The translations under genes were made by a program, and so were the position numbers. 64,000 nucleotides of DNA, from contig CAWDWP010000018.1 of assembly GCA_963806045.1 (NCBI GenBank), positions 2,068-66,067 on the forward strand, read 5' to 3'. Positions 51,722-58,232 of this stretch are shown piece after piece (position 1 is the first letter of the stretch; every line of letters begins with the position of its first letter). The notes beneath the pieces were generated by a model. It was not told the DNA's origin. It saw only the letters and a list, made by a program, of their open reading frames with translations, and made no database searches. Source of the stretch: an uncultured Ignavibacteria bacterium. GTDB taxonomy: Bacteria; Bacteroidota; Ignavibacteria; Tepidaquicellales; Tepidaquicellaceae.

Positions 51722-51762
51722 GAAAATATTTTATTAATTAAATTGTTCTTTTAAAGATATTT

Positions 51763-51915
51763 TTGGTAACACAGTTTTAATAGGGAATCCGGTGCGAACC
51801 CGGAACTGTCCACGCAACTGTAAAAGAGAAGATTAGTTCAGTATGCCACTGATTTCGTAATTTGGGAAGGAGATCTGAAAATTGCTCTTAAGTCAGGAGA
51901 CCTGCCGGGAATATT
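51763..51915 (+). promoter_or_regulatory. Cobalamin (B12) riboswitch aptamer
   Basis: The core is 'aatagggaatccggtgcgaacccggaactgtccacgcaactgtaa', followed by 'gccactg', 'gggaagg' and the B12 box 'agtcaggagacctgcc'. It lies upstream of a TonB-dependent receptor. Confidence 0.9.
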
Positions 51916-51962
51916 TGATTTCAACTCTTTCGTTGGAAAAGAAGTTAATTTTTATAAAAGAT

Positions 51963-52020
51963 CCTTAATTCTTTTTAATTTTATAATTACTCTATTTCAC
52001 GAAAGAATTAAGGTTTTTTT
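51963..52020 (+). terminator. Riboswitch expression platform: terminator / RBS-sequestering hairpin
   Basis: A 12-bp stem, ccttaattcttt ... aaagaattaagg, is followed by ttttttt. The 3' arm contains the likely RBS (aagg), 10 nt before the ATG at 52024. Confidence 0.7.
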
Positions 52021-52023
52021 ATT

Positions 52024-53952
52024 ATGATTAAAAAATTTTACTATATATTCAGTTCATTACTTTTTCTTGTCCAAATTGTATATGCGCAATCTGAGAAGAA
52101 AGATGATAAATCGTACCAAACTGATGAAATAGTTGTACATGGATACAAATTATTTGGAAATATTTTTACTTCACCCACAAAGATTAAAATAATTGATTTA
52201 GCTGAAATTAAATCAAAAAACGGGGACAGGTTATCTGATATTCTTGAATTAACGAGCAGCAGTTATATTAAATCATACGGTGGAAATTCTGCTTTAAAGA
52301 CAATATCTTTAAATGGTATGGGAGCAGAACACACATTAATTCTCATCGACGGAAACAGAATAGGAACTTTTCAAAATTCTCAGGTGGATTTATCTCAAAT
52401 CTCTAAAGACAATATTGAAAAAATTGAGATTCTCAACAGTGGATTTAGTTCAATATACGGATCAGATGCGGTTGGGGGAGTTGTGAATGTTATAACAAAA
52501 TCTCCGGAATTAACGACAGAAGCTAAGTTATCTCTCAATACCGAATTGGGGTCATATAATCAAAGAAAATATTCATTAAATATCTCGAAAAGTTTTAAAA
52601 ATTTATCAATAGCGGTATTGGGAAATTTAGAATCTTCCGATGATAATTTTAAATATTATTTTAATGATGGTATCACAAATATTCTTAAGGAAAGGGAAAA
52701 TTCAAATTATAATTATAAAAATTTTAATATTAATTTTAACTATTATTTAAGTAAAAAAAGTTCTATTCAGTTTAATTCTAATTATATATGGAATTTCCAT
52801 AATTTACCAGGAATAGAAACCGGAACACCTACTATATCGAATACTCAAAAGGATAAAATATTTTACAGCTTTTTGAATTTTGAATCAGACCTAAATGATA
52901 AAACTATATTTCGATCTTCAGTTAGTTTCCAAAATTATCTAATGAACTATGAAACCAAACCTCTGCTAAACAGTTTTTATAAAAATTTAGTTTTTACAAA
53001 CAGGTCGCAGGTTCAGTTTAAAAACTCCAATGATATTGTTTTAGGATATGAAATTAATTATGGAAAATTGTATAGCAATGAAACATTCAATAATCCTGAA
53101 AGATTACAGCCGGCATTATTTATGGCCTCTGAAATAAAATTATTTAATAATGATCGGTTAAATATTTATCCGTCGCTTCGGTATGATTATTATTCTGACA
53201 CAAAAATTAGTAATCTCAGTTATAAACTCGGGTTTAATTATAAATTATTCAAATCTGAGGAAGTGTATTTAAAAGGAAACTTCGGAAATAATTTTCGTGC
53301 ACCTACTTTTAATGAATTATACTGGAATCAGGGAGGAAATAGATATTTATCTCAGGAAAAATCATTTAATATTGACCTTGGAGTGATTTCAAAATTTAAA
53401 TTTATTGGAAATAACGTTTTCGAACTGACGTATTCTTATGATAATCTCCGGGATAAAATTCTTTGGGTTCCCGGAGGTCAGAATGGATTATGGTCTCCTG
53501 TGAACATTGGAAAATCAAGAGTTTACACTTTTACTGCAGAATTGAAGTCAAAGAAAGAATTTTTTAAATTATTGAAAAGTAATATCAATATTGGACTAAA
53601 TATAAATAATTCATTAAATACATTTAATAATATGGATAACTCTTTTGAAAATCAGCAAATTTATGTTCCTAAATATGTAATTAAATTATCTTCCGGATTA
53701 AATGTGAAAAACATTAATTTAAACATATTTTATCAATATATTTCAAAAAGATATACTGATTTAGGAAATAATTATTTTCTTCCTCCCGTAGATTTATTAG
53801 ATGGCAATTTAAGCTATGAATTTGGAATAAATAAACTAAATATTATTCTCAGATTTGAAGCAAATAACATAATGAATAAAAATTATCAGTTTATTTCAGG
53901 CTATCCAATGCCTTTGAGGAATTATAAAATCGGATTACAATTAAATTATTAA
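52024..53952 (+). CDS. btuB: TonB-dependent outer-membrane receptor (vitamin B12 transporter BtuB-like)
   Basis: It has a signal peptide, a TonB box-like 'DEIVVHG', a plug domain ('GAEHTLILIDG', 'YGSDAVGGVVNV'), a beta-barrel, and a terminal aromatic residue ('GLQLNY'). The B12 riboswitch lies directly upstream. Confidence 0.85.
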   Translation: MIKKFYYIFSSLLFLVQIVYAQSEKKDDKSYQTDEIVVHGYKLFGNIFTSPTKIKIIDLAEIKSKNGDRLSDILELTSSSYIKSYGGNSALKTISLNGMGAEHTLILIDGNRIGTFQNSQVDLSQISKDNIEKIEILNSGFSSIYGSDAVGGVVNVITKSPELTTEAKLSLNTELGSYNQRKYSLNISKSFKNLSIAVLGNLESSDDNFKYYFNDGITNILKERENSNYNYKNFNINFNYYLSKKSSIQFNSNYIWNFHNLPGIETGTPTISNTQKDKIFYSFLNFESDLNDKTIFRSSVSFQNYLMNYETKPLLNSFYKNLVFTNRSQVQFKNSNDIVLGYEINYGKLYSNETFNNPERLQPALFMASEIKLFNNDRLNIYPSLRYDYYSDTKISNLSYKLGFNYKLFKSEEVYLKGNFGNNFRAPTFNELYWNQGGNRYLSQEKSFNIDLGVISKFKFIGNNVFELTYSYDNLRDKILWVPGGQNGLWSPVNIGKSRVYTFTAELKSKKEFFKLLKSNINIGLNINNSLNTFNNMDNSFENQQIYVPKYVIKLSSGLNVKNINLNIFYQYISKRYTDLGNNYFLPPVDLLDGNLSYEFGINKLNIILRFEANNIMNKNYQFISGYPMPLRNYKIGLQLNY

Positions 53953-53955
53953 AAA

Positions 53956-54615
53956 ATGAATACTTCACCAGATGAAAAATCTTTGTCCGGTGGGACAAAG
54001 TATAAAGAAAAGATACTAAAGACAATTGAAGGTTATAAAAATCTTAAACCGGAAGATAAAAATTGTCTTCATGTTTATTATGGTTACGGAAAAGGGAAAA
54101 CAACATGTGCGGTAGGGCTTGCAATCAGGGCACTAGGTGCAGGTAAGAAGGTTGTACTTATTCAATTCGATAAAGGATATGATGGTGAAAATGAGCATTA
54201 TTCAGAACGAATTCTACTACGACGGTTGAAAGAATTAGGATATGATATCGAATTGTACCCTACGGGATGTGAAAGGATGAATAATGATGGAACATTCAGA
54301 TTCAAAAACAATGAAGAAGATTTAAAGGAAGCTAAAAGGGGATTAGAAATCGCAGAAAAATATATTGATAATCCTGAACAGGATATGCTGATATTAGATG
54401 AAGCAATTGCAGCAGTGGCTTATAATTTACTTAAAAAAGAAGATATTGAAAAATTAATAACTAAATTTAAAAACGACAGAAAATATGAATTTGTAATCAC
54501 AGGACATAAAATTTGGAAATTTATTGAAGATAATGCTGACTTAATAACTGAAATGAAAAAAATTAAACATTATTTCGATAACGGAATTCCTGCCAGACCG
54601 GGAATAGAATTTTAA
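53956..54615 (+). CDS. cobO: Cob(I)yrinic acid a,c-diamide / cob(I)alamin adenosyltransferase (CobO/BtuR type)
   Basis: 'HVYYGYGKGKTTCAVGLAIRALGAGKKVVLIQFDKG' and 'LILDE' are present. Confidence 0.9.
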   Translation: MNTSPDEKSLSGGTKYKEKILKTIEGYKNLKPEDKNCLHVYYGYGKGKTTCAVGLAIRALGAGKKVVLIQFDKGYDGENEHYSERILLRRLKELGYDIELYPTGCERMNNDGTFRFKNNEEDLKEAKRGLEIAEKYIDNPEQDMLILDEAIAAVAYNLLKKEDIEKLITKFKNDRKYEFVITGHKIWKFIEDNADLITEMKKIKHYFDNGIPARPGIEF

Positions 54616-54623
54616 AAAGAGGA

Positions 54624-55688
54624 ATGAATTTAAACATGATAAATAGTTTTAAAAAAAGTTATTTAATATTATTTCTCTTTACGATTTTATTTAATTCATG
54701 TACAAGAGATGAGATAATTAATGTTCCTCCTCCTATAGTGACTTCAACCACAGGAGCATATGTCTTATCTGAAGGTGGTTTTTCTCAAAACACTTCTAAA
54801 TTATCACTATATAGTATCATACAAGATACATTCTATACTAGCATATTTTATCCCGGAAATCTTGGCCTGTTTTCAAGTGGAATGTTTTTATATAATAATT
54901 TTTTGTTTGTACTTGAACAGGGAAGTTTTGGTGCTCCTGGAAAAATATATCAGCTGGATACAACAGGAAAAGTTCTCAATTCAAATATAATCGGTATTAA
55001 CCCCTATTCCCTGACGGTTGCAAATAACAAAATCTATTATACTAACGGATCTGCTGGAAATGTCGGAGTTCTGAATGTAAATGATTTATCCTTTATTAAG
55101 AATATAACTGTCGGTGCTTATCCTCAGGAAATAACATCTTTTGGTGGAAAAGTTTTTGTCTGTAATACAAGCATATATGGGGGAACCCAGGATTCTACAG
55201 TATCTGTTATTGATTCTCAAAATGATTTAGAAATTTACAAAATAACGGTTAAAAAGGATCCATCTTCTGTATGTATTTCCAGAAATAATACTTTGATAAT
55301 TGGTTGTAATGGAATCAACGGATTAATTTATATCGTTGACCCAATTACATATAATAAAATTGATTCATTGAATACTCCTGAAGGTTTTGGTAAAGATTTG
55401 AATATAGACTCACAAACAAATAATTTATATTTTATTTCATATGTAGGAAATATTGTAAAACTGGATTTGGATTCGAAATTCAGCACAACTGTAATTCAGA
55501 ATCTGAATCCGGGAGTATCTTTTTTTTATGGTTATTCATTTGATTCAAAAAACAGAAAACATTATTTATGTGATGCGGGAAATTTTATGTCCAACGGATA
55601 TTTCCATATTCTAAATATGAATAATATCATTGAAAAGAGTTTCTCTGCAGGAATAGCACCAAGAAGAATTGTATTAAAATCGAATTGA
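54624..55688 (+). CDS. Surface lipoprotein with a YncE-like beta-propeller (candidate corrinoid-capture accessory protein)
   Basis: It has a lipobox 'LFNSC' and repeated blade-like segments ('NKIYYTNGSAGNVGVLNV', 'GKVFVCNT...VSVIDSQN', 'LIYIVDPITYNK', 'NNLYFISYVGNIVKLDL'). It lies within the B12 uptake string. Confidence 0.6.
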   Translation: MNLNMINSFKKSYLILFLFTILFNSCTRDEIINVPPPIVTSTTGAYVLSEGGFSQNTSKLSLYSIIQDTFYTSIFYPGNLGLFSSGMFLYNNFLFVLEQGSFGAPGKIYQLDTTGKVLNSNIIGINPYSLTVANNKIYYTNGSAGNVGVLNVNDLSFIKNITVGAYPQEITSFGGKVFVCNTSIYGGTQDSTVSVIDSQNDLEIYKITVKKDPSSVCISRNNTLIIGCNGINGLIYIVDPITYNKIDSLNTPEGFGKDLNIDSQTNNLYFISYVGNIVKLDLDSKFSTTVIQNLNPGVSFFYGYSFDSKNRKHYLCDAGNFMSNGYFHILNMNNIIEKSFSAGIAPRRIVLKSN

Positions 55689-55708: not shown

Positions 55709-56572
55709 TTGGATCTAAAAAAAAATATTGCTTACAAATTCGAAGACCTGAATATTTCAGAATATCCTTTGAATTATGAGATGATAGGTGCTACAAGCGA
55801 AAATGAAAGATTCAGCATATTCATTCATCAAAATGTTATTGAAGAAATCGATTCATTTCTAATTTCAGATGTAAATAATGAGTGCGGTGGAGTATTGCTT
55901 GGAAAAGTTTTTAGAACAGAATCAAATAAATTATTTGTTATAGTAGATAATTTTATTATTGCAAAGAGCACTAAGTCATCAATCTCAAGACTCACTTTTA
56001 CGCACGATACCTGGGATGGAATAAATAACGAACTGGAAGTGTACCACAAAGATGATATCATCTTAGGTTGGTTCCATTCCCATCCCGGTCATGGTGTATT
56101 TTTATCGGGATATGATATTTTTATACAGGAAAATTTTTTCAACGAAGAATTTATGATTGCATATGTTTATGATCCGGTAAATAATGATAGAGCTTTTTTC
56201 AAGTGGATGGACGGGCAGATTGTTAAATCGAACGGATATAACATAATTAAAAAAAACTCCATTCCTGCATTAGACTTATCGGAACCAAAAGGAAAAAAGA
56301 TAAATGAAGATTCATCCCAAAAGAAAACAGTTGTTAATAAATATTTAGTTTTACTATTCTCATTACTTATTATTAATATGGTTATTCTAATAATGTTAAT
56401 TGTTGATAATAATAAAATGAAAACGCAAATTCAGGAATCGAAAAATGAAAATTCGCAAATTAATAATATAAAAACCTCGATAGACAAGCTGGAATTTAAA
56501 GTTAACGATTTGATATTGAGACAGTTAAATAAAGAAGATTCTGTAGAATTAAGTAATAAATTTAAGAAATAA
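55709..56572 (+). CDS. JAB/MPN+ (JAMM) metalloprotease domain protein with a C-terminal TM helix and coiled-coil tail
   Basis: The JAMM motif is intact: Glu58 ('NECGGVLLG') and 'H123-S-H125-PGHGVFL-S133-GY-D136'. The TM segment is 'KYLVLLFSLLIINMVILIMLIV'. The start is TTG at 55709, with an alternative ATG at 55781. Confidence 0.85.
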   Translation: MDLKKNIAYKFEDLNISEYPLNYEMIGATSENERFSIFIHQNVIEEIDSFLISDVNNECGGVLLGKVFRTESNKLFVIVDNFIIAKSTKSSISRLTFTHDTWDGINNELEVYHKDDIILGWFHSHPGHGVFLSGYDIFIQENFFNEEFMIAYVYDPVNNDRAFFKWMDGQIVKSNGYNIIKKNSIPALDLSEPKGKKINEDSSQKKTVVNKYLVLLFSLLIINMVILIMLIVDNNKMKTQIQESKNENSQINNIKTSIDKLEFKVNDLILRQLNKEDSVELSNKFKK

Positions 56573-56573
56573 T

Positions 56574-57119
56574 TTGAATCCGAGAAGCCGAAGATTATTA
56601 TCCGATTTCAGAAAAATTGAAGAAGAATTCAAAAACCATAATATTATTAGTGTACAGGGTAACGATGAAGTCTTCCCGCCGGAAAGATATTTGGTTAAAT
56701 ATTCCGGAATAAAAGGAATAGCGTTATCACCTTTTTCTACTGCGGAGAATAAAATTATTATGGATGTAAATGAACATATTATCGAAATTGTGTTGCATCT
56801 AAATTATCCCCGATATAAACCTCTCTGCTATATTAAAACTAATATCTTTCATCCAAATTTCAGGTCTGCTCATCCGCATGAAGTCTGCATTGGCGATTAT
56901 TGGGCTCCGGGAGAAGGCTTAACGGAAATAATATATAAAATGGGAGAAATGATACAATATAAAGTATATAACGTAAAAAGCCCTTTAAATGGTATTGCAG
57001 CGAAGTGGGCAAGAGAGCATTCCCATCTTTTCCCTCTAGATAAAAATGAATTAAGAACAGCCGAATATGATTCTAAAAAAAATAATTCGAACCAACAATT
57101 AGAAATTAATATTCAGTAA
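56574..57119 (+). CDS. Ubiquitin-conjugating-enzyme-like (UBC/E2 fold) protein
   Basis: It has the helix 'RRLLSDFRKIEEEF', 'LNYPRYKP', the H93-P-N95 motif and a candidate catalytic Cys105 in 'HEVCIGDYWAPG' (codon 56886-56888). The TTG start lies 1 nt after the JAB stop. Confidence 0.7.
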   Translation: MNPRSRRLLSDFRKIEEEFKNHNIISVQGNDEVFPPERYLVKYSGIKGIALSPFSTAENKIIMDVNEHIIEIVLHLNYPRYKPLCYIKTNIFHPNFRSAHPHEVCIGDYWAPGEGLTEIIYKMGEMIQYKVYNVKSPLNGIAAKWAREHSHLFPLDKNELRTAEYDSKKNNSNQQLEINIQ

Positions 57120-57120
57120 T

Positions 57121-57654
57121 ATGATTTTACCATATAATGGAATTGAACCTAAAATTGATGAAAGTGTATTTATATGTGACGGAGCATTCGTGATAGGGGA
57201 TGTAGTGCTGGAGAAAAATGTCAGCGTTTGGTTTAATGCTGTTGTCAGAGGTGATGTCAACTATATTCGCGTCGGTGAAAGCACAAACATTCAGGACGGG
57301 AGTATTCTGCATGTTACTTACCAAAAATATCCGCTAATCATAGGTACGGAAGTTACTATAGGACACGGAGTTGTTATTCACGGATGTAAGATAAAAGACA
57401 GAGTATTAATTGGTATTGGAGCGATTTTACTTGATAATTGCACAGTGAATTCAAATTCATTTATTGCGGCAGGAACACTTGTTAAAGAAAATTTTATTGT
57501 TCCGGAAGGGGTGCTGGTAGCAGGAGTCCCGGGTAAAATAGTCAGGGATCTGACCGATATTGAAATCAATAAAATAAAGAGAAGTTCTGAAAATTACATT
57601 ATGTATGTTAACAATTACAGAACAAATGGTTATAATCCTCCAAGATTCCCGTAA
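57121..57654 (+). CDS. Gamma-carbonic-anhydrase-like left-handed beta-helix (hexapeptide repeat) protein
   Basis: 'WFNAVVRGDVNYIRVGESTNIQDGSILH' and 'IGHGVVIHGCKI' are present (YrdA/PaaY type). The start lies 1 nt after the E2-like stop. Confidence 0.85.
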   Translation: MILPYNGIEPKIDESVFICDGAFVIGDVVLEKNVSVWFNAVVRGDVNYIRVGESTNIQDGSILHVTYQKYPLIIGTEVTIGHGVVIHGCKIKDRVLIGIGAILLDNCTVNSNSFIAAGTLVKENFIVPEGVLVAGVPGKIVRDLTDIEINKIKRSSENYIMYVNNYRTNGYNPPRFP

Positions 57655-57800: not shown

Positions 57801-58232
57801 TTGAATAATAATAAAGGAAGCAATATTTTAAGTAAGGCAAATATTAAGAAAATTGAACATCTTTTCGGCATTCATTTCGTTAAGAAAGAAAAATCTCTCA
57901 GTACAAATATTAAAAACCCGAAATCGAAAACAGAGATTAATCTTGATTTGATTTCAGAAGATGATAAGTCCATATTAGTATCTGTTTATACAAATAATTG
58001 CCACCTGCAGCTTCAATCCTGTGATAAATTTCTGATAAGTTCTATGCTTGAAGAAATAATTTTTATATCGAAAAATGGTAATAAATTGTCCGGATTAATA
58101 ATAACAAAGCAGGGAGATTGTTCATTATATTCTAATGTTAGTATTTCATCATTGAGAAAAGATTTTACAAACCTTAACTCTGAAAAGCTTATATCAGCAG
58201 TTGCTCTTTCAGTCGCCGAGACACTTTATTAA
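57801..58232 (+). CDS. Hypothetical protein
   Basis: This is an ORF with a TTG start and no recognisable motif. Whether it is coding is uncertain. Confidence 0.35.
   Translation: MNNNKGSNILSKANIKKIEHLFGIHFVKKEKSLSTNIKNPKSKTEINLDLISEDDKSILVSVYTNNCHLQLQSCDKFLISSMLEEIIFISKNGNKLSGLIITKQGDCSLYSNVSISSLRKDFTNLNSEKLISAVALSVAETLY

What the first reader, a model, noticed from the sequence alone, without database searches (positions are those of the whole stretch)
55709..57119. Translationally coupled membrane-anchored JAB/MPN+ protease and eukaryote-like UBC (E2) protein with no E1 or ubiquitin-like gene nearby
ORF 55709-56572 carries a complete JAMM active site (Glu58; H123xH125; Ser133; Asp136). This is followed by one TM helix and a ~50-aa helical tail. 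One nucleotide after its stop, ORF 56574-57119 begins. It has a TTG start and no in-frame ATG until residue 63, so it is probably translated by coupling. It reads like a canonical UBC fold: an N-terminal helix 'RRLLSDFRKIEEEF', a 'YPRYKP' flap, an HPN triad (93-95), and Cys105 ten residues later in 'VCIGDYWAPG'. Described bacterial ubiquitin-like conjugation modules combine E2 and JAB with a ThiF/MoeB-type E1 and usually a beta-grasp Ubl. These include the prokaryotic E2/JAB/E1 operons of Iyer, Burroughs and Aravind, CBASS Cap2/Cap3, Bil and Bub operons. Here I find neither an E1 adenylation domain nor a small GG-terminated ORF within at least 5 kb on either side. The neighbours are B12 uptake genes and an LbH protein, not defence genes. 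A minimal, membrane-tethered E2+JAB pair in a metabolic context does not match the described architectures. It could be a new type of conjugation/deconjugation switch, or an E2 fold recruited for another thiol-dependent chemistry.
Basis: partly seen in the sequence, partly recalled or inferred. Interest (0 to 1): 0.8.

Follow-up and report, generated by a model that had tools for sequence, protein, structure and literature searches.

The report
Split bacterial ubiquitin system: DUB–E2 half
The two genes are a real membrane-anchored Rpn11-like deubiquitinase and a real ubiquitin-conjugating (E2) enzyme, but they are not a stand-alone minimal system: in Ignavibacteria the matching ubiquitin-like protein, E1 and RING E3 are encoded together at a second, distant place in the same genomes.

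Summary
ORF 55709-56572 is a JAMM/MPN+ protease with one TM helix. ORF 56574-57119 is a UBC-fold E2 with invariant HPN and Cys105. No E1, Ubl or RING lies anywhere in the 64 kb window.

The interpretation, an E1/Ubl-less minimal module, does not hold. Both proteins are homologues of the E2 and JAB of complete Ubl-E1-E2-JAB-RING operons in Clostridia, Armatimonadota, Planctomycetota and others. In Ignavibacteria the system is split:
- All 55 species-representative E2 loci are JAB-E2-(LbH), with no E1, Ubl or RING within 10 kb.
- All 19 Ignavibacteria-type E1 loci from metagenomes are Ubl-E1-RING, with no E2 or JAB.
- Three assemblies (GCA_020437585.1, GCA_016218085.1, GCA_023429265.1) carry both halves on different contigs.

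The cognate Ubl ends in ...PEITAG (Ala-Gly), so looking for a GG-terminated ORF was the wrong test.

The most likely mechanism is a canonical E1-E2-RING cascade, reversed by the Rpn11-like DUB at the cytoplasmic face of the inner membrane. The second locus could not be checked in the window's own genome.

What remains of interest is a complete eukaryote-like ubiquitination system that is vertically inherited across a bacterial class, sits among housekeeping genes, and is split into two conserved loci. I could not find this described.

The parts
55709..56572 (+). Rpn11-like JAMM/MPN+ deubiquitinase. The catalytic domain (about residues 30-180) is N-terminal and cytoplasmic, followed by one TM helix and a short helical C-terminal tail.
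   Evidence: Pfam JAB scores 37 bits, above its cut-off. PADLOC JAB models reach E 1.7e-12. The family profile's best PDB matches are Caldiarchaeum Rpn11-like 6FJU/6FJV at 4e-17, then Rpn11, CSN5, AMSH and BRCC36. It is 32% identical over 279 aa to the JAB of the complete Anoxynatronum operon.
55880..56116 (+). JAMM active-site residues: E58 (55880-55882), H123 (56075-56077), H125 (56081-56083), S133 (56105-56107), D136 (56114-56116).
   Evidence: These residues are invariant in 48 Ignavibacteria and 22 full-operon JABs. The codons were read directly from the sequence.
56348..56404 (+). Single transmembrane helix of the JAB protein (residues 214-232).
   Evidence: Kyte-Doolittle 19-residue window mean is 3.17. 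A TM helix at the equivalent position is present in nearly all Ignavibacteria and full-operon JABs. The Anoxynatronum orthologue carries a LysM domain after the TM helix, which implies an N-in/C-out topology (inference).
56574..57119 (+). Eukaryote-like UBC-fold E2 (soluble, 181 aa, TTG start).
   Evidence: UQ_con gives E 2.8e-5. The AF2 model has pLDDT 89.2. Foldseek gives 393 PDB matches at E <= 0.001, and the listed top 50 are all canonical E2s. A family profile matches 192 PDB E2 sequences. It is 46% identical to the E2 of the complete Anoxynatronum operon. The conserved N-terminus MxPRxRRLxSD in relatives supports the TTG start.
56850..56888 (+). E2 active-site loop: HPN triad (56850-56858) and catalytic Cys105 (56886-56888), including a clade-specific 4-residue insertion.
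   Evidence: H93, P94, N95 and C105 are invariant in 85 sequences. The Asn-to-Cys spacing is 10 in 56/56 Ignavibacteria E2s, against mostly 6 in full-operon E2s.
57121..57654 (+). Gamma-carbonic-anhydrase/YrdA/PaaY/CaiE-family LbH protein. It is a tightly linked downstream gene. Co-transcription is likely, but functional membership is unproven.
   Evidence: Hexapep scores 54.8 bits. NCBIfam gamma carbonic anhydrase scores 178 bits, below its cut-off, with PaaY at 110 and CaiE at 97. It lies directly downstream of E2 in 52 of 54 testable Ignavibacteria loci, and stays attached where both flanks differ.

Best explanation
The two genes are the deubiquitinase and the E2 of a five-component, eukaryote-like Ubl-conjugation system: Ubl, ThiF-type E1, UBC E2, membrane RING E3 and Rpn11-like JAB. 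In the class Ignavibacteria this system has been split into two unlinked, vertically inherited chromosomal loci. One is JAB-E2 (followed by an LbH gene). The other is Ubl-E1-RING (usually next to a convergent UbiA gene).

Proposed working cycle. Each step is inferred from homology to the reconstituted Caldiarchaeum system. None was shown here.
1. Where the 89-aa Ubl carries a short C-terminal extension (for example 'RF'), the JAB trims it to expose ...PEITAG.
2. The E1 adenylates the terminal Gly and forms an E1~Ubl thioester.
3. The Ubl is passed to Cys105 of the E2.
4. The single-pass membrane RING E3 recruits E2~Ubl and a substrate, and HPN-assisted aminolysis forms an isopeptide bond.
5. 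The membrane-anchored JAB removes the Ubl again.

Both JAB and RING have N-terminal cytoplasmic catalytic domains followed by one TM helix. The cycle should therefore run at the cytoplasmic face of the inner membrane. The substrates and the physiological role are unknown.
For: Shown by tools:
(a) The proteins are a genuine JAMM protease and a genuine UBC E2, each with invariant catalytic residues.
(b) They are homologues of the E2 (46% identity) and JAB (32-42%) of complete Ubl-E1-E2-JAB-RING operons.
(c) In species-representative genomes, 55/55 Ignavibacteria-lineage loci lack E1, Ubl and RING within 10 kb. Every non-Ignavibacteria locus of adequate length has Ubl+E1, usually with RING. Profile HMMs confirm the absence over 1.02 Mb.
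(d) The Ignavibacteria E2+JAB clade is monophyletic (100/100 NJ bootstraps).
(e) An E1 family 61-81% identical to P0251 is repeatedly labelled Ignavibacteria or Ignavibacteriae. It always sits in Ubl-E1-RING loci without E2 or JAB: 11 loci, and 19/19 Ignavibacteria-type loci from metagenomes.
(f) Both halves occur in the same assembly three times: GCA_020437585.1 (contigs JAGQWG010000002.1 and JAGQWG010000001.1), GCA_016218085.1 (JACREY010000008.1 and JACREY010000017.1) and GCA_023429265.1 (JAEYVS010000066.1 and JAEYVS010000027.1).
(g) The Ubl ends in PEITAG, or PEITAG+RF.
(h) Both JAB and RING carry one TM helix.

Established knowledge: the homologous Caldiarchaeum Ubl/E1/E2/RING cascade and its Rpn11-like DUB were reconstituted in vitro (PMC5654768; PMC6043591, listed).
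Against: - The second locus could not be looked for in the window's own genome, because only 64 kb is available.
- The window and its sister L006 branch just outside the bracket formed by two of the three assemblies where both loci are proven (inside in 47/100 bootstraps). The third assembly (L058) has no JAB on its contig and is not in that tree.
- The co-occurrence evidence comes from MAGs, where mis-binning is possible. Three independent assemblies, and the reciprocal architecture of the two loci, argue against that.
- One E1-RING locus (L091) shows no recognisable Ubl upstream.
- The Ignavibacteria E2 has a 4-residue insertion in the active-site loop, and the JAB has a clade-specific F128H change. 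The functional meaning of both is unknown.
- No biochemical evidence exists for any bacterial member.
Confidence: 0.8

Rival explanations
1. The JAB-E2 pair is an autonomous minimal module that works without any E1 or Ubl. For example, the E2 cysteine could attack a peptide bond in a substrate tail to form the thioester directly, in a transpeptidase-like way as reported for E2-only CBASS, with the JAB as the reversing enzyme.
For: - No E1, Ubl or RING lies within 64 kb in the window, or within 10 kb in 55 related loci.
- An E1-independent bacterial E2 has been reported in E2-CBASS.
- There is a clade-specific 4-residue insertion next to the catalytic Cys.
Against: - The cognate Ubl, E1 and RING exist in the same class and in the same assemblies.
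- Their loci lack exactly E2 and JAB, as expected if the two loci complement each other.
- The N-terminal helix residues R4, R7 and D11 are kept in both clades. In canonical E2s this helix is the E1/E3-binding face.
- There is no CD-NTase or other tail-bearing partner next to the pair, and no PADLOC E2 model matches.
Confidence: 0.06
2. JAB-E2-LbH is a functional triad. The gamma-carbonic-anhydrase/PaaY-like LbH protein would be a dedicated partner, substrate or regulator of the conjugation cycle, possibly tied to cobalamin status through the upstream riboswitch-led gene string. This rival is compatible with the best explanation rather than exclusive of it.
For: - LbH lies directly downstream of E2 in 52/54 testable loci. 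Stop and start often overlap or lie 1-11 nt apart.
- LbH is retained in 15 loci where the downstream synteny differs, and in 3 loci where both flanks differ.
- No + strand terminator was detected between the riboswitch and the end of the LbH gene in the window.
Against: - The LbH belongs to a ubiquitous housekeeping-type family, and no full-operon relative has one nearby.
- The whole region is strongly syntenic in this lineage, so adjacency could be inherited rather than selected.
- Two loci (L018, L027) have lost the adjacency.
- The riboswitch is absent where the TonB receptor is absent (L012, L048), so B12 control is not a conserved property of the pair.
Confidence: 0.15
3. The system is an anti-phage or conflict system, as shown for Bil and type II CBASS and as predicted for the mobile bacterial Ubl/E1/E2/JAB(/RING) operons.
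For: - Related operon families are predicted or shown to be defensive (PMC10557695; PMC3417536).
- The JAB matches PADLOC JAB models.
- The full-operon relatives are scattered over many phyla, which fits mobility.
Against: - In Ignavibacteria both halves sit in conserved housekeeping neighbourhoods: ArgRS...TopA/XerC for one, UbiA for the other.
- The E2+JAB tree shows a single monophyletic, class-wide clade. That is the pattern of a vertically inherited core function, not of a defence island.
- No defence genes flank either locus, and no PADLOC E2 model matches.
Confidence: 0.12
4. The pair is a decaying remnant of a lost operon with no present function.
For: The partner genes are missing locally.
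Against: - Intact ORFs occur in 55 species-level lineages, with every catalytic residue of both enzymes invariant.
- Gene order is conserved.
- The partners are present elsewhere in the genome.
Confidence: 0.01

Closest known systems
Bacterial Ubl-E1-E2-RING-JAB operons (Burroughs, Iyer and Aravind 2011, as cited in PMC10557695 and PMC3417536). Examples here: Anoxynatronum sibiricum L005/L067 and loci L061-L085.
   Same: - The same five protein families are present.
- The E2 is 46% identical and the JAB 32-42% identical.
- The Ubl is 66-70% identical, with the same PEITAG end.
- The E1 has 47-58% identical segments.
- The RING is of the Prok-RING_1 type.
- JAB and RING are membrane-anchored in both.
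   Different: - In Ignavibacteria the genes are split into two unlinked loci (JAB-E2 and Ubl-E1-RING).
- Both loci are fixed in conserved housekeeping neighbourhoods and inherited vertically across the class.
- The E2 has a 4-residue active-site-loop insertion.
- JAB-E2 is followed by an LbH gene.
- The RING carries a C-terminal SnoaL/Cds6_C-like domain.
- I could not read the 2011 paper itself.
Caldiarchaeum subterraneum ubiquitin system (Ub, E1-like, E2-like, small RING finger protein, Rpn11-like DUB)
   Same: - The component set and the logic are the same.
- CsRpn11 (6FJU/6FJV) is the best solved relative of the JAB family (4e-17).
- The archaeal cascade and DUB were reconstituted in vitro, including trimming of a pro-Ub tail (PMC5654768).
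   Different: - The archaeal Ub ends in Gly-Gly, whereas the Ubl here ends in Ala-Gly.
- The bacterial JAB and RING are membrane proteins.
- The Caldiarchaeum genes are clustered, with the Rpn11 gene juxtaposed to the operon, whereas here the system is split.
Bil (BilABCD), Bub and type II CBASS (Cap2/Cap3) ubiquitination-like defence operons
   Same: They use E1, E2-like, JAB and (for Bil and Bub) Ubl proteins for protein conjugation in bacteria. The JAB weakly matches PADLOC and NCBIfam Cap3-type models.
   Different: - The E2 here is of the eukaryote-like UQ_con type, and no PADLOC E2 model matches.
- A RING E3 is present.
- There is no CD-NTase, effector or DUF6527 protein.
- The context is not a defence island.
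- Operon compositions are as described in PMC11601603.
E2-only CBASS (E2 acting without an E1)
   Same: A bacterial UBC-like E2 encoded without an adjacent E1.
   Different: - There the E2 sits next to a CD-NTase whose C-terminal tail it processes, and no JAB is present.
- Here the E2 is paired with a JAB, and a cognate E1 and Ubl exist elsewhere in the genome.

Membership tests
UBC/E2 ubiquitin-conjugating enzymes (Pfam UQ_con PF00179) | Match to the Pfam model at its gathering score | tested here: not met
   The window protein scores 24.2 bits against a 27-bit cut-off, with E 2.8e-5. Most relatives have a precomputed PF00179 hit, and a family profile matches 192 PDB E2 sequences. The shortfall reflects divergence rather than non-membership.
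UBC/E2 ubiquitin-conjugating enzymes (Pfam UQ_con PF00179) | UBC fold: N-terminal helix, four-stranded antiparallel sheet, C-terminal helices | tested here: met
   The AF2 model has pLDDT 89.2 and pTM 0.83, with elements H3-19, four strands, H116-127 and H140-148. Foldseek against PDB gives 393 matches at E <= 0.001. The listed top 50 are all canonical E2s, with target-normalised TM scores from 0.53 to 0.72.
UBC/E2 ubiquitin-conjugating enzymes (Pfam UQ_con PF00179) | HPN triad and catalytic Cys, conserved in orthologues | tested here: met
   H93, P94, N95 and C105 are invariant in 85 sequences and present in all loci with a called E2 ORF. They align with the HPN and Cys of UBE2A.
UBC/E2 ubiquitin-conjugating enzymes (Pfam UQ_con PF00179) | Forms a thioester with a Ubl delivered by an E1 | not testable with these tools
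   This needs in vitro charging with the Ignavibacteria E1, Ubl and ATP, with a C105A control.
JAMM/MPN+ metalloproteases, Rpn11-like clade | Pfam JAB match at gathering score and an E...HxH...S..D metal site | tested here: met
   JAB scores 37.0 bits against 22.5, and Prok-JAB 25.6 against 25. E58, H123, H125, S133 and D136 are invariant in 70 sequences. The nearest solved relatives are CsRpn11, Rpn11 and CSN5.
JAMM/MPN+ metalloproteases, Rpn11-like clade | Isopeptidase or Ubl-tail-processing activity | not testable with these tools
   This needs an enzymatic assay on Ubl-RF precursors and on Ubl conjugates.
Five-component eukaryote-like prokaryotic Ub system (Ubl-E1-E2-RING-JAB) | E2 and JAB are homologous to those of complete operons | tested here: met
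   tblastn of the Anoxynatronum E2 and JAB against the window gives 4.7e-41 and 1.8e-38. The two share the JAB-TM architecture.
Five-component eukaryote-like prokaryotic Ub system (Ubl-E1-E2-RING-JAB) | Cognate Ubl, E1 and RING encoded in the same genome | tested here: inconclusive
   Met in three related assemblies: GCA_020437585.1, GCA_016218085.1 and GCA_023429265.1. Not testable for the window's own genome, because only 64 kb is held and that stretch contains none.
Five-component eukaryote-like prokaryotic Ub system (Ubl-E1-E2-RING-JAB) | All components clustered in one operon or neighbourhood | tested here: not met
   0/55 Ignavibacteria E2 loci have E1, Ubl or RING within 10 kb. 0/19 Ignavibacteria-type E1 loci have E2 or JAB. 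In GCA_020437585.1 the two loci lie on contigs of 1.08 Mb and 0.77 Mb, each at least 180 kb from a contig end.
Bil / Bub / type II CBASS (Cap2-Cap3) defence systems | System-specific E2 (BilB, BubB or Cap2) with an adjacent or fused E1, plus a CD-NTase/effector or DUF6527 protein | tested here: not met
   No PADLOC E2 or E1 model matches the E2. NCBIfam shows only a weak, partial cap2_3 match to the JAB domain, 19.9 bits against a cut-off of 320. The neighbours are B12 uptake, LbH, YbeY and TopA genes.
E2-only CBASS | E2 encoded next to a CD-NTase with a C-terminal recruiting tail; no JAB | tested here: not met
   There is no CD-NTase in the window neighbourhood or in related loci, and a JAB is always adjacent (48/48).

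The most novel reading that the evidence does not exclude
Ignavibacteria possess a 'domesticated', vertically inherited, complete eukaryote-like ubiquitination system: Ubl, E1, UBC E2, membrane RING E3 and membrane Rpn11-like DUB. It is split into two conserved chromosomal loci. Under this reading it modifies endogenous proteins at the inner membrane as a housekeeping or regulatory pathway, loosely analogous to membrane-associated RING/E2 quality control in eukaryotes. It would not be a mobile anti-phage element. The tightly linked LbH protein could be a dedicated partner or substrate.
Probability: 0.35. Interest if true: 0.65.

Novelty: new variant of a known kind. Interest (0 to 1): 0.4.

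Why it matters
Bacterial Ubl/E1/E2/RING/JAB operons are known from comparative genomics. In the papers I could read they are described as sparse, mobile, uncharacterised and probably defensive.

This finding shows the same five-component machinery behaving differently:
- It is fixed across a whole bacterial class.
- It is embedded among housekeeping genes.
- It is split into a 'writer-supply' locus (Ubl-E1-RING) and a 'carrier-eraser' locus (JAB-E2).

This cautions against inferring 'E1-less' or 'minimal' ubiquitin-like modules from local gene context alone. It also shows that searching for a Gly-Gly terminus misses this Ubl family.

The E2-JAB pair is present in Ignavibacterium-labelled MAGs (L036, L048, L050, L053, L056). 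From my own knowledge, Ignavibacterium album can be cultured. If the cultured strain also carries the system, the class would offer a tractable setting in which to ask what a RING-type ubiquitination system does for a bacterium.

Tried and rejected
1. Searching the window and 59 related loci (1.02 Mb, six frames) with tblastn and with purpose-built HMMs for Ubl, E1 and RING, and with the E[IPVL]T[AG]G motif. Nothing significant was found. This confirmed local absence but could not address the rest of the genome.

2. A homologue search with the Firmicute E1. The family is so large (7,938 hits) that the 120 listed carried no Ignavibacteria names, so this was uninformative on its own.

3. An E1 profile against the 50%-identity representative library, followed by screening for AT-rich-genome amino-acid composition. 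This indirect route produced P0251 and led to the second locus. The other AT-rich candidates were divergent (33-45% identical to the Ignavibacteria-type E1s) and unhelpful.

4. Bracketing the window's lineage phylogenetically between assemblies with both loci. The result was ambiguous (47/100 bootstraps).

5. An attempt to match the window's sister assembly (DATCHW01) through a TPA-labelled E1. No NCBI record was returned.

6. The sigma-70 promoter scan was uninformative: 48 sites found against 49.4 expected.

7. Cobalamin-riboswitch control of the pair was considered. It was rejected as a conserved feature, because the riboswitch follows the TonB receptor and is absent where CobA directly precedes JAB.

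8. Burroughs et al. 2011 (PMC5938088) could not be read. Prior description of a split variant therefore cannot be excluded.

9. No structure was predicted for the JAB and no complex was modelled.
Full report
**1. The observation.**
The two ORFs are present exactly as described. JAB runs 55709-56572 (TTG start, 287 aa). E2 runs 56574-57119 (TTG start, 181 aa) and starts one nucleotide after the JAB stop codon. The first internal Met of the E2 is residue 63.

The JAB protein passes Pfam's own thresholds for JAB (37.0 bits against 22.5) and for Prok-JAB (25.6 against 25). E58, H123, H125, S133 and D136 are invariant in 48 Ignavibacteria and 22 more distant orthologues. One strongly hydrophobic helix lies at residues 214-232.

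The E2 matches Pfam UQ_con at E 2.8e-5 but with 24.2 bits, just below the 27-bit cut-off. It matches no Prok-E2 family, no PADLOC E2 model and no NCBIfam model. Three further results settle its identity:
- A profile of 85 family members matches 192 distinct PDB E2 sequences, with HPN and the catalytic Cys in register with UBE2A.
- An AlphaFold2 model built on that alignment is confident (pLDDT 89.2, pTM 0.83) and shows the UBC topology.
- Foldseek against PDB returns 393 matches at E <= 0.001, and the listed top 50 are all canonical eukaryotic E2s.

H93, P94, N95 and C105 are invariant. The conserved N-terminus MxPRxRRLxSD in relatives supports the TTG start. The descriptive part of the finding is therefore confirmed.

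**2. What surrounds it.**
The window has about 31% G+C and carries chromosomal housekeeping genes. Upstream on the same strand lie, in order:
- a cobalamin riboswitch (51747-51923, 111.5 bits);
- a BtuB-like TonB-dependent receptor;
- CobA/BtuR;
- a YncE-like beta-propeller lipoprotein.

Then come JAB, E2 and a gamma-carbonic-anhydrase/PaaY/CaiE-family LbH protein. The intergenic gaps along this string are 3, 8, 20, 1 and 1 nt, and no + strand terminator was detected. There is no ThiF-type E1, no Ubl and no RING anywhere in the 64 kb.

**3. Where the pair comes from.**
The E2 has more than 200 relatives. The close ones (47-91% identity) are labelled Ignavibacteria, Ignavibacteriae, Bacteroidetes or Chlorobiota MAGs. 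They sit in the same neighbourhood: ArgRS ... BtuB-CobA-propeller-JAB-E2-LbH-(CSD)-x-YbeY-TopA-XerC.

A more distant relative is 46% identical and comes from the Firmicute Anoxynatronum sibiricum. It sits in a compact operon: YukD-like Ubl, ThiF E1, E2, JAB (with a TM helix and LysM) and Prok-RING_1. The window's JAB and E2 are clear homologues of that operon's JAB and E2 (1.8e-38 and 4.7e-41).

This operon type is the known eukaryote-like prokaryotic ubiquitin system. The papers I could read attribute it to Burroughs, Iyer and Aravind 2011 and describe it as rare, mobile and uncharacterised in bacteria. Its archaeal counterpart from Caldiarchaeum has been reconstituted biochemically. Consistently, the best solved relative of the JAB family is the Caldiarchaeum Rpn11-like DUB (6FJU/6FJV, 4e-17), followed by Rpn11, CSN5, AMSH and BRCC36.

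**4. A clean dichotomy.**
I scanned one genome per species with an E2 alignment, which returned 80 loci, and searched each for the partner genes.
- All 55 Ignavibacteria-lineage loci have JAB-E2 with no E1, Ubl or RING within 10 kb. JAB is adjacent in 48 of 48 testable loci.
- The 25 loci from Clostridia, Syntrophomonadaceae, Armatimonadota, Planctomycetota, Solirubrobacteraceae and Riflebacteria carry Ubl+E1, usually with RING, wherever the contig is long enough.

HMMs built from those Ubl, E1 and RING sequences find nothing in 1.02 Mb of six-frame-translated Ignavibacteria DNA. On a concatenated E2+JAB alignment the Ignavibacteria clade is monophyletic in 100 of 100 NJ bootstraps.

That clade has two signature changes. 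The first is a 4-residue insertion between HPN and the catalytic Cys: the Asn-to-Cys spacing is 10 in 56 of 56 sequences, against mostly 6 elsewhere. The second is a Phe-to-His change directly after the HxHPG motif of the JAB.

**5. The missing partners are elsewhere in the same genomes.**
The Ubl of the complete operons ends in a conserved ...PEITAG, sometimes followed by a few residues.

The E1 family is very large, with 7,938 hits,412 50%-identity representatives at E <= 1e-30. To find an Ignavibacteria member, I screened the 150 best representatives for the amino-acid composition of AT-rich genomes.

One of them, P0251, lies on a contig rich in Por_Secre_tail (T9SS) proteins. Its locus reads Ubl-E1-Prok-RING with no E2 and no JAB within 8 kb. 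A homologue search with P0251 returned proteins of 385-392 aa at 61-81% identity, repeatedly named 'ThiF family adenylyltransferase [Ignavibacteria / Ignavibacteriae / Bacteroidetes bacterium]'.

Context look-ups show the same Ubl-E1-RING arrangement every time, usually next to a convergent UbiA gene. Three of these loci belong to assemblies that also hold the JAB-E2 locus:
- GCA_020437585.1: JAGQWG010000001.1 carries Ubl-E1-RING and JAGQWG010000002.1 carries JAB-E2-LbH.
- GCA_016218085.1: JACREY010000017.1 and JACREY010000008.1.
- GCA_023429265.1: JAEYVS010000027.1 and JAEYVS010000066.1.

In the first assembly each locus is at least 180 kb from the end of its contig, so the two are far apart.

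A reciprocal survey of metagenome contigs with an Ignavibacteria E1 alignment gave the complementary picture.
- All 19 Ignavibacteria-type loci (57-64% identity, 32-45% G+C) are Ubl-E1-RING(-UbiA), and none has E2 or JAB.
- Almost all other E1 loci of adequate length have E2 and/or JAB next to them.

The Ignavibacteria Ubl is 89 aa and 66-70% identical to the Firmicute one. It ends exactly at PEITAG, or carries a two-residue 'RF' extension. The RING protein has one TM helix and a C-terminal SnoaL/Cds6_C-like domain.

**6. How it most likely works.**
The pair is the 'carrier-eraser' half of a split five-component system. All steps below are inferred by homology to the reconstituted archaeal system.
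1. The JAB trims Ubl extensions where they are present.
2. The E1 adenylates and thioesterifies the Ubl.
3. The Ubl moves to Cys105 of the E2.
4. The membrane RING E3 brings E2~Ubl to a substrate lysine.
5. The JAB reverses the modification.

JAB and RING each have an N-terminal catalytic domain followed by one TM helix, and the Anoxynatronum JAB carries an extracytoplasmic-type LysM domain after its TM helix. The chemistry should therefore take place on the cytoplasmic face of the inner membrane. Substrates and physiological role are unknown.

The strictly vertical, class-wide inheritance in housekeeping contexts argues against a mobile defence island, although defence cannot be excluded.

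**7. Rivals.**
- *An autonomous, E1-free E2+JAB module.* There is a precedent for an E1-independent E2 in E2-only CBASS. This is now unlikely because the cognate partners exist and their locus lacks exactly these two genes.
- *A functional JAB-E2-LbH triad.* This remains open. LbH follows E2 in 52 of 54 loci and stays attached where one or both flanks have changed. However, it belongs to a ubiquitous family and is absent from all full operons.
- *Control by the cobalamin riboswitch.* This is not a conserved property. The riboswitch is present upstream of the TonB receptor in 5 of 5 loci checked, but absent in the two checked loci where CobA directly precedes JAB.
- *A decaying remnant.* This is excluded by invariant catalytic residues across 55 species-level lineages.

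**8. Limits.**
- I could not search the rest of the window's own genome.
- The window and its sister L006 branch just outside the bracket formed by two of the assemblies in which both loci are proven (47 of 100 bootstraps place it inside).
- The co-occurrence evidence rests on MAGs.
- The 2011 paper that defined the parent system was not readable. A full-text search for Ignavibacterium plus ubiquitin returned only two papers, and neither title concerns this system; I did not open them.
- No JAB structure and no complexes were predicted.

**9. Verdict.**

What is there is a lineage-specific variant of a known kind of system. It is a complete eukaryote-like ubiquitination pathway split into two conserved, unlinked loci and fixed across Ignavibacteria. 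I rate it of moderate interest (0.4).

Noticed in passing
window 51747-55688: A cobalamin riboswitch (RF00174, 111.5 bits) heads a tightly packed string: a BtuB-like TonB receptor (52024-53952), CobA/BtuR (53956-54615) and a YncE-like beta-propeller lipoprotein (54624-55688). The last may be a surface B12-capture protein. The string runs without a detectable terminator into JAB-E2-LbH. The riboswitch is conserved in L006, L010, L020, L045 and L057, but absent in L012 and L048, where the receptor is missing.
   Followed up: partly
window 57121-57654; L006-L060: The gamma-carbonic-anhydrase/PaaY/CaiE-family LbH gene is the most faithfully linked neighbour of the pair (52/54 loci). It often overlaps the E2 stop codon by 4 nt, and it stays attached when both flanks differ (L021, L023, L029). 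The two exceptions (L018, L027) have other ORFs inserted after E2.
   Followed up: partly
L087, L088, L091-L093, L095, L099-L101, L108-L121: The second locus (Ubl-E1-RING) has its own conserved neighbour, a convergently transcribed UbiA-family prenyltransferase directly after the RING gene. Band_7/NfeD or Rce1-like membrane protease genes are often nearby. It is unknown whether this is functional or only inherited synteny.
   Followed up: no
L005, L061-L085, L087-L092: The Ubl of this system ends in a nearly invariant DVLRLxPEITAG (Ala-Gly, not Gly-Gly). It is much better conserved between phyla (66-70% identity between Ignavibacteria and a Firmicute) than the E2 (46%) or the JAB (32-42%). Some copies carry 1-6 extra C-terminal residues.
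   Followed up: partly
L086 (ENA ERZ6864376 contig, 33% G+C): A divergent AT-rich variant has the order E1, Ubl (ending ...MVWAG), a 224-aa E2, a TSP_3-repeat protein and then a 474-aa protein with a JAB-like region. It is only 31-35% identical to the window's E2 and JAB, and no RING was seen.
   Followed up: no
window 56859-56885 (E2 residues 96-104) and 56090-56092 (JAB residue 128): There are two clade-specific changes next to the two active sites. The E2 has a 4-residue insertion between HPN and Cys105 (spacing 10 in 56/56 Ignavibacteria E2s). In the JAB, His replaces Phe directly after HxHPG (48/48, against F in 19/22 full-operon JABs). These might reflect co-adaptation after the split.
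   Followed up: partly
window 57801-58232: A conserved 143-aa protein with no Pfam or NCBIfam match lies directly upstream of, and overlaps, the YbeY gene. It is syntenic in most Ignavibacteria loci. In relatives a cold-shock-domain gene sits between LbH and this ORF, but that gene is absent from the window.
   Followed up: no
L091 (GCA_016702515.1, JADJDW010000032.1): This E1-RING locus has a 470-nt gap upstream of the E1 in which no Ubl ORF could be recognised in any frame. The Ubl may be encoded elsewhere or may have been lost in this lineage.
   Followed up: partly
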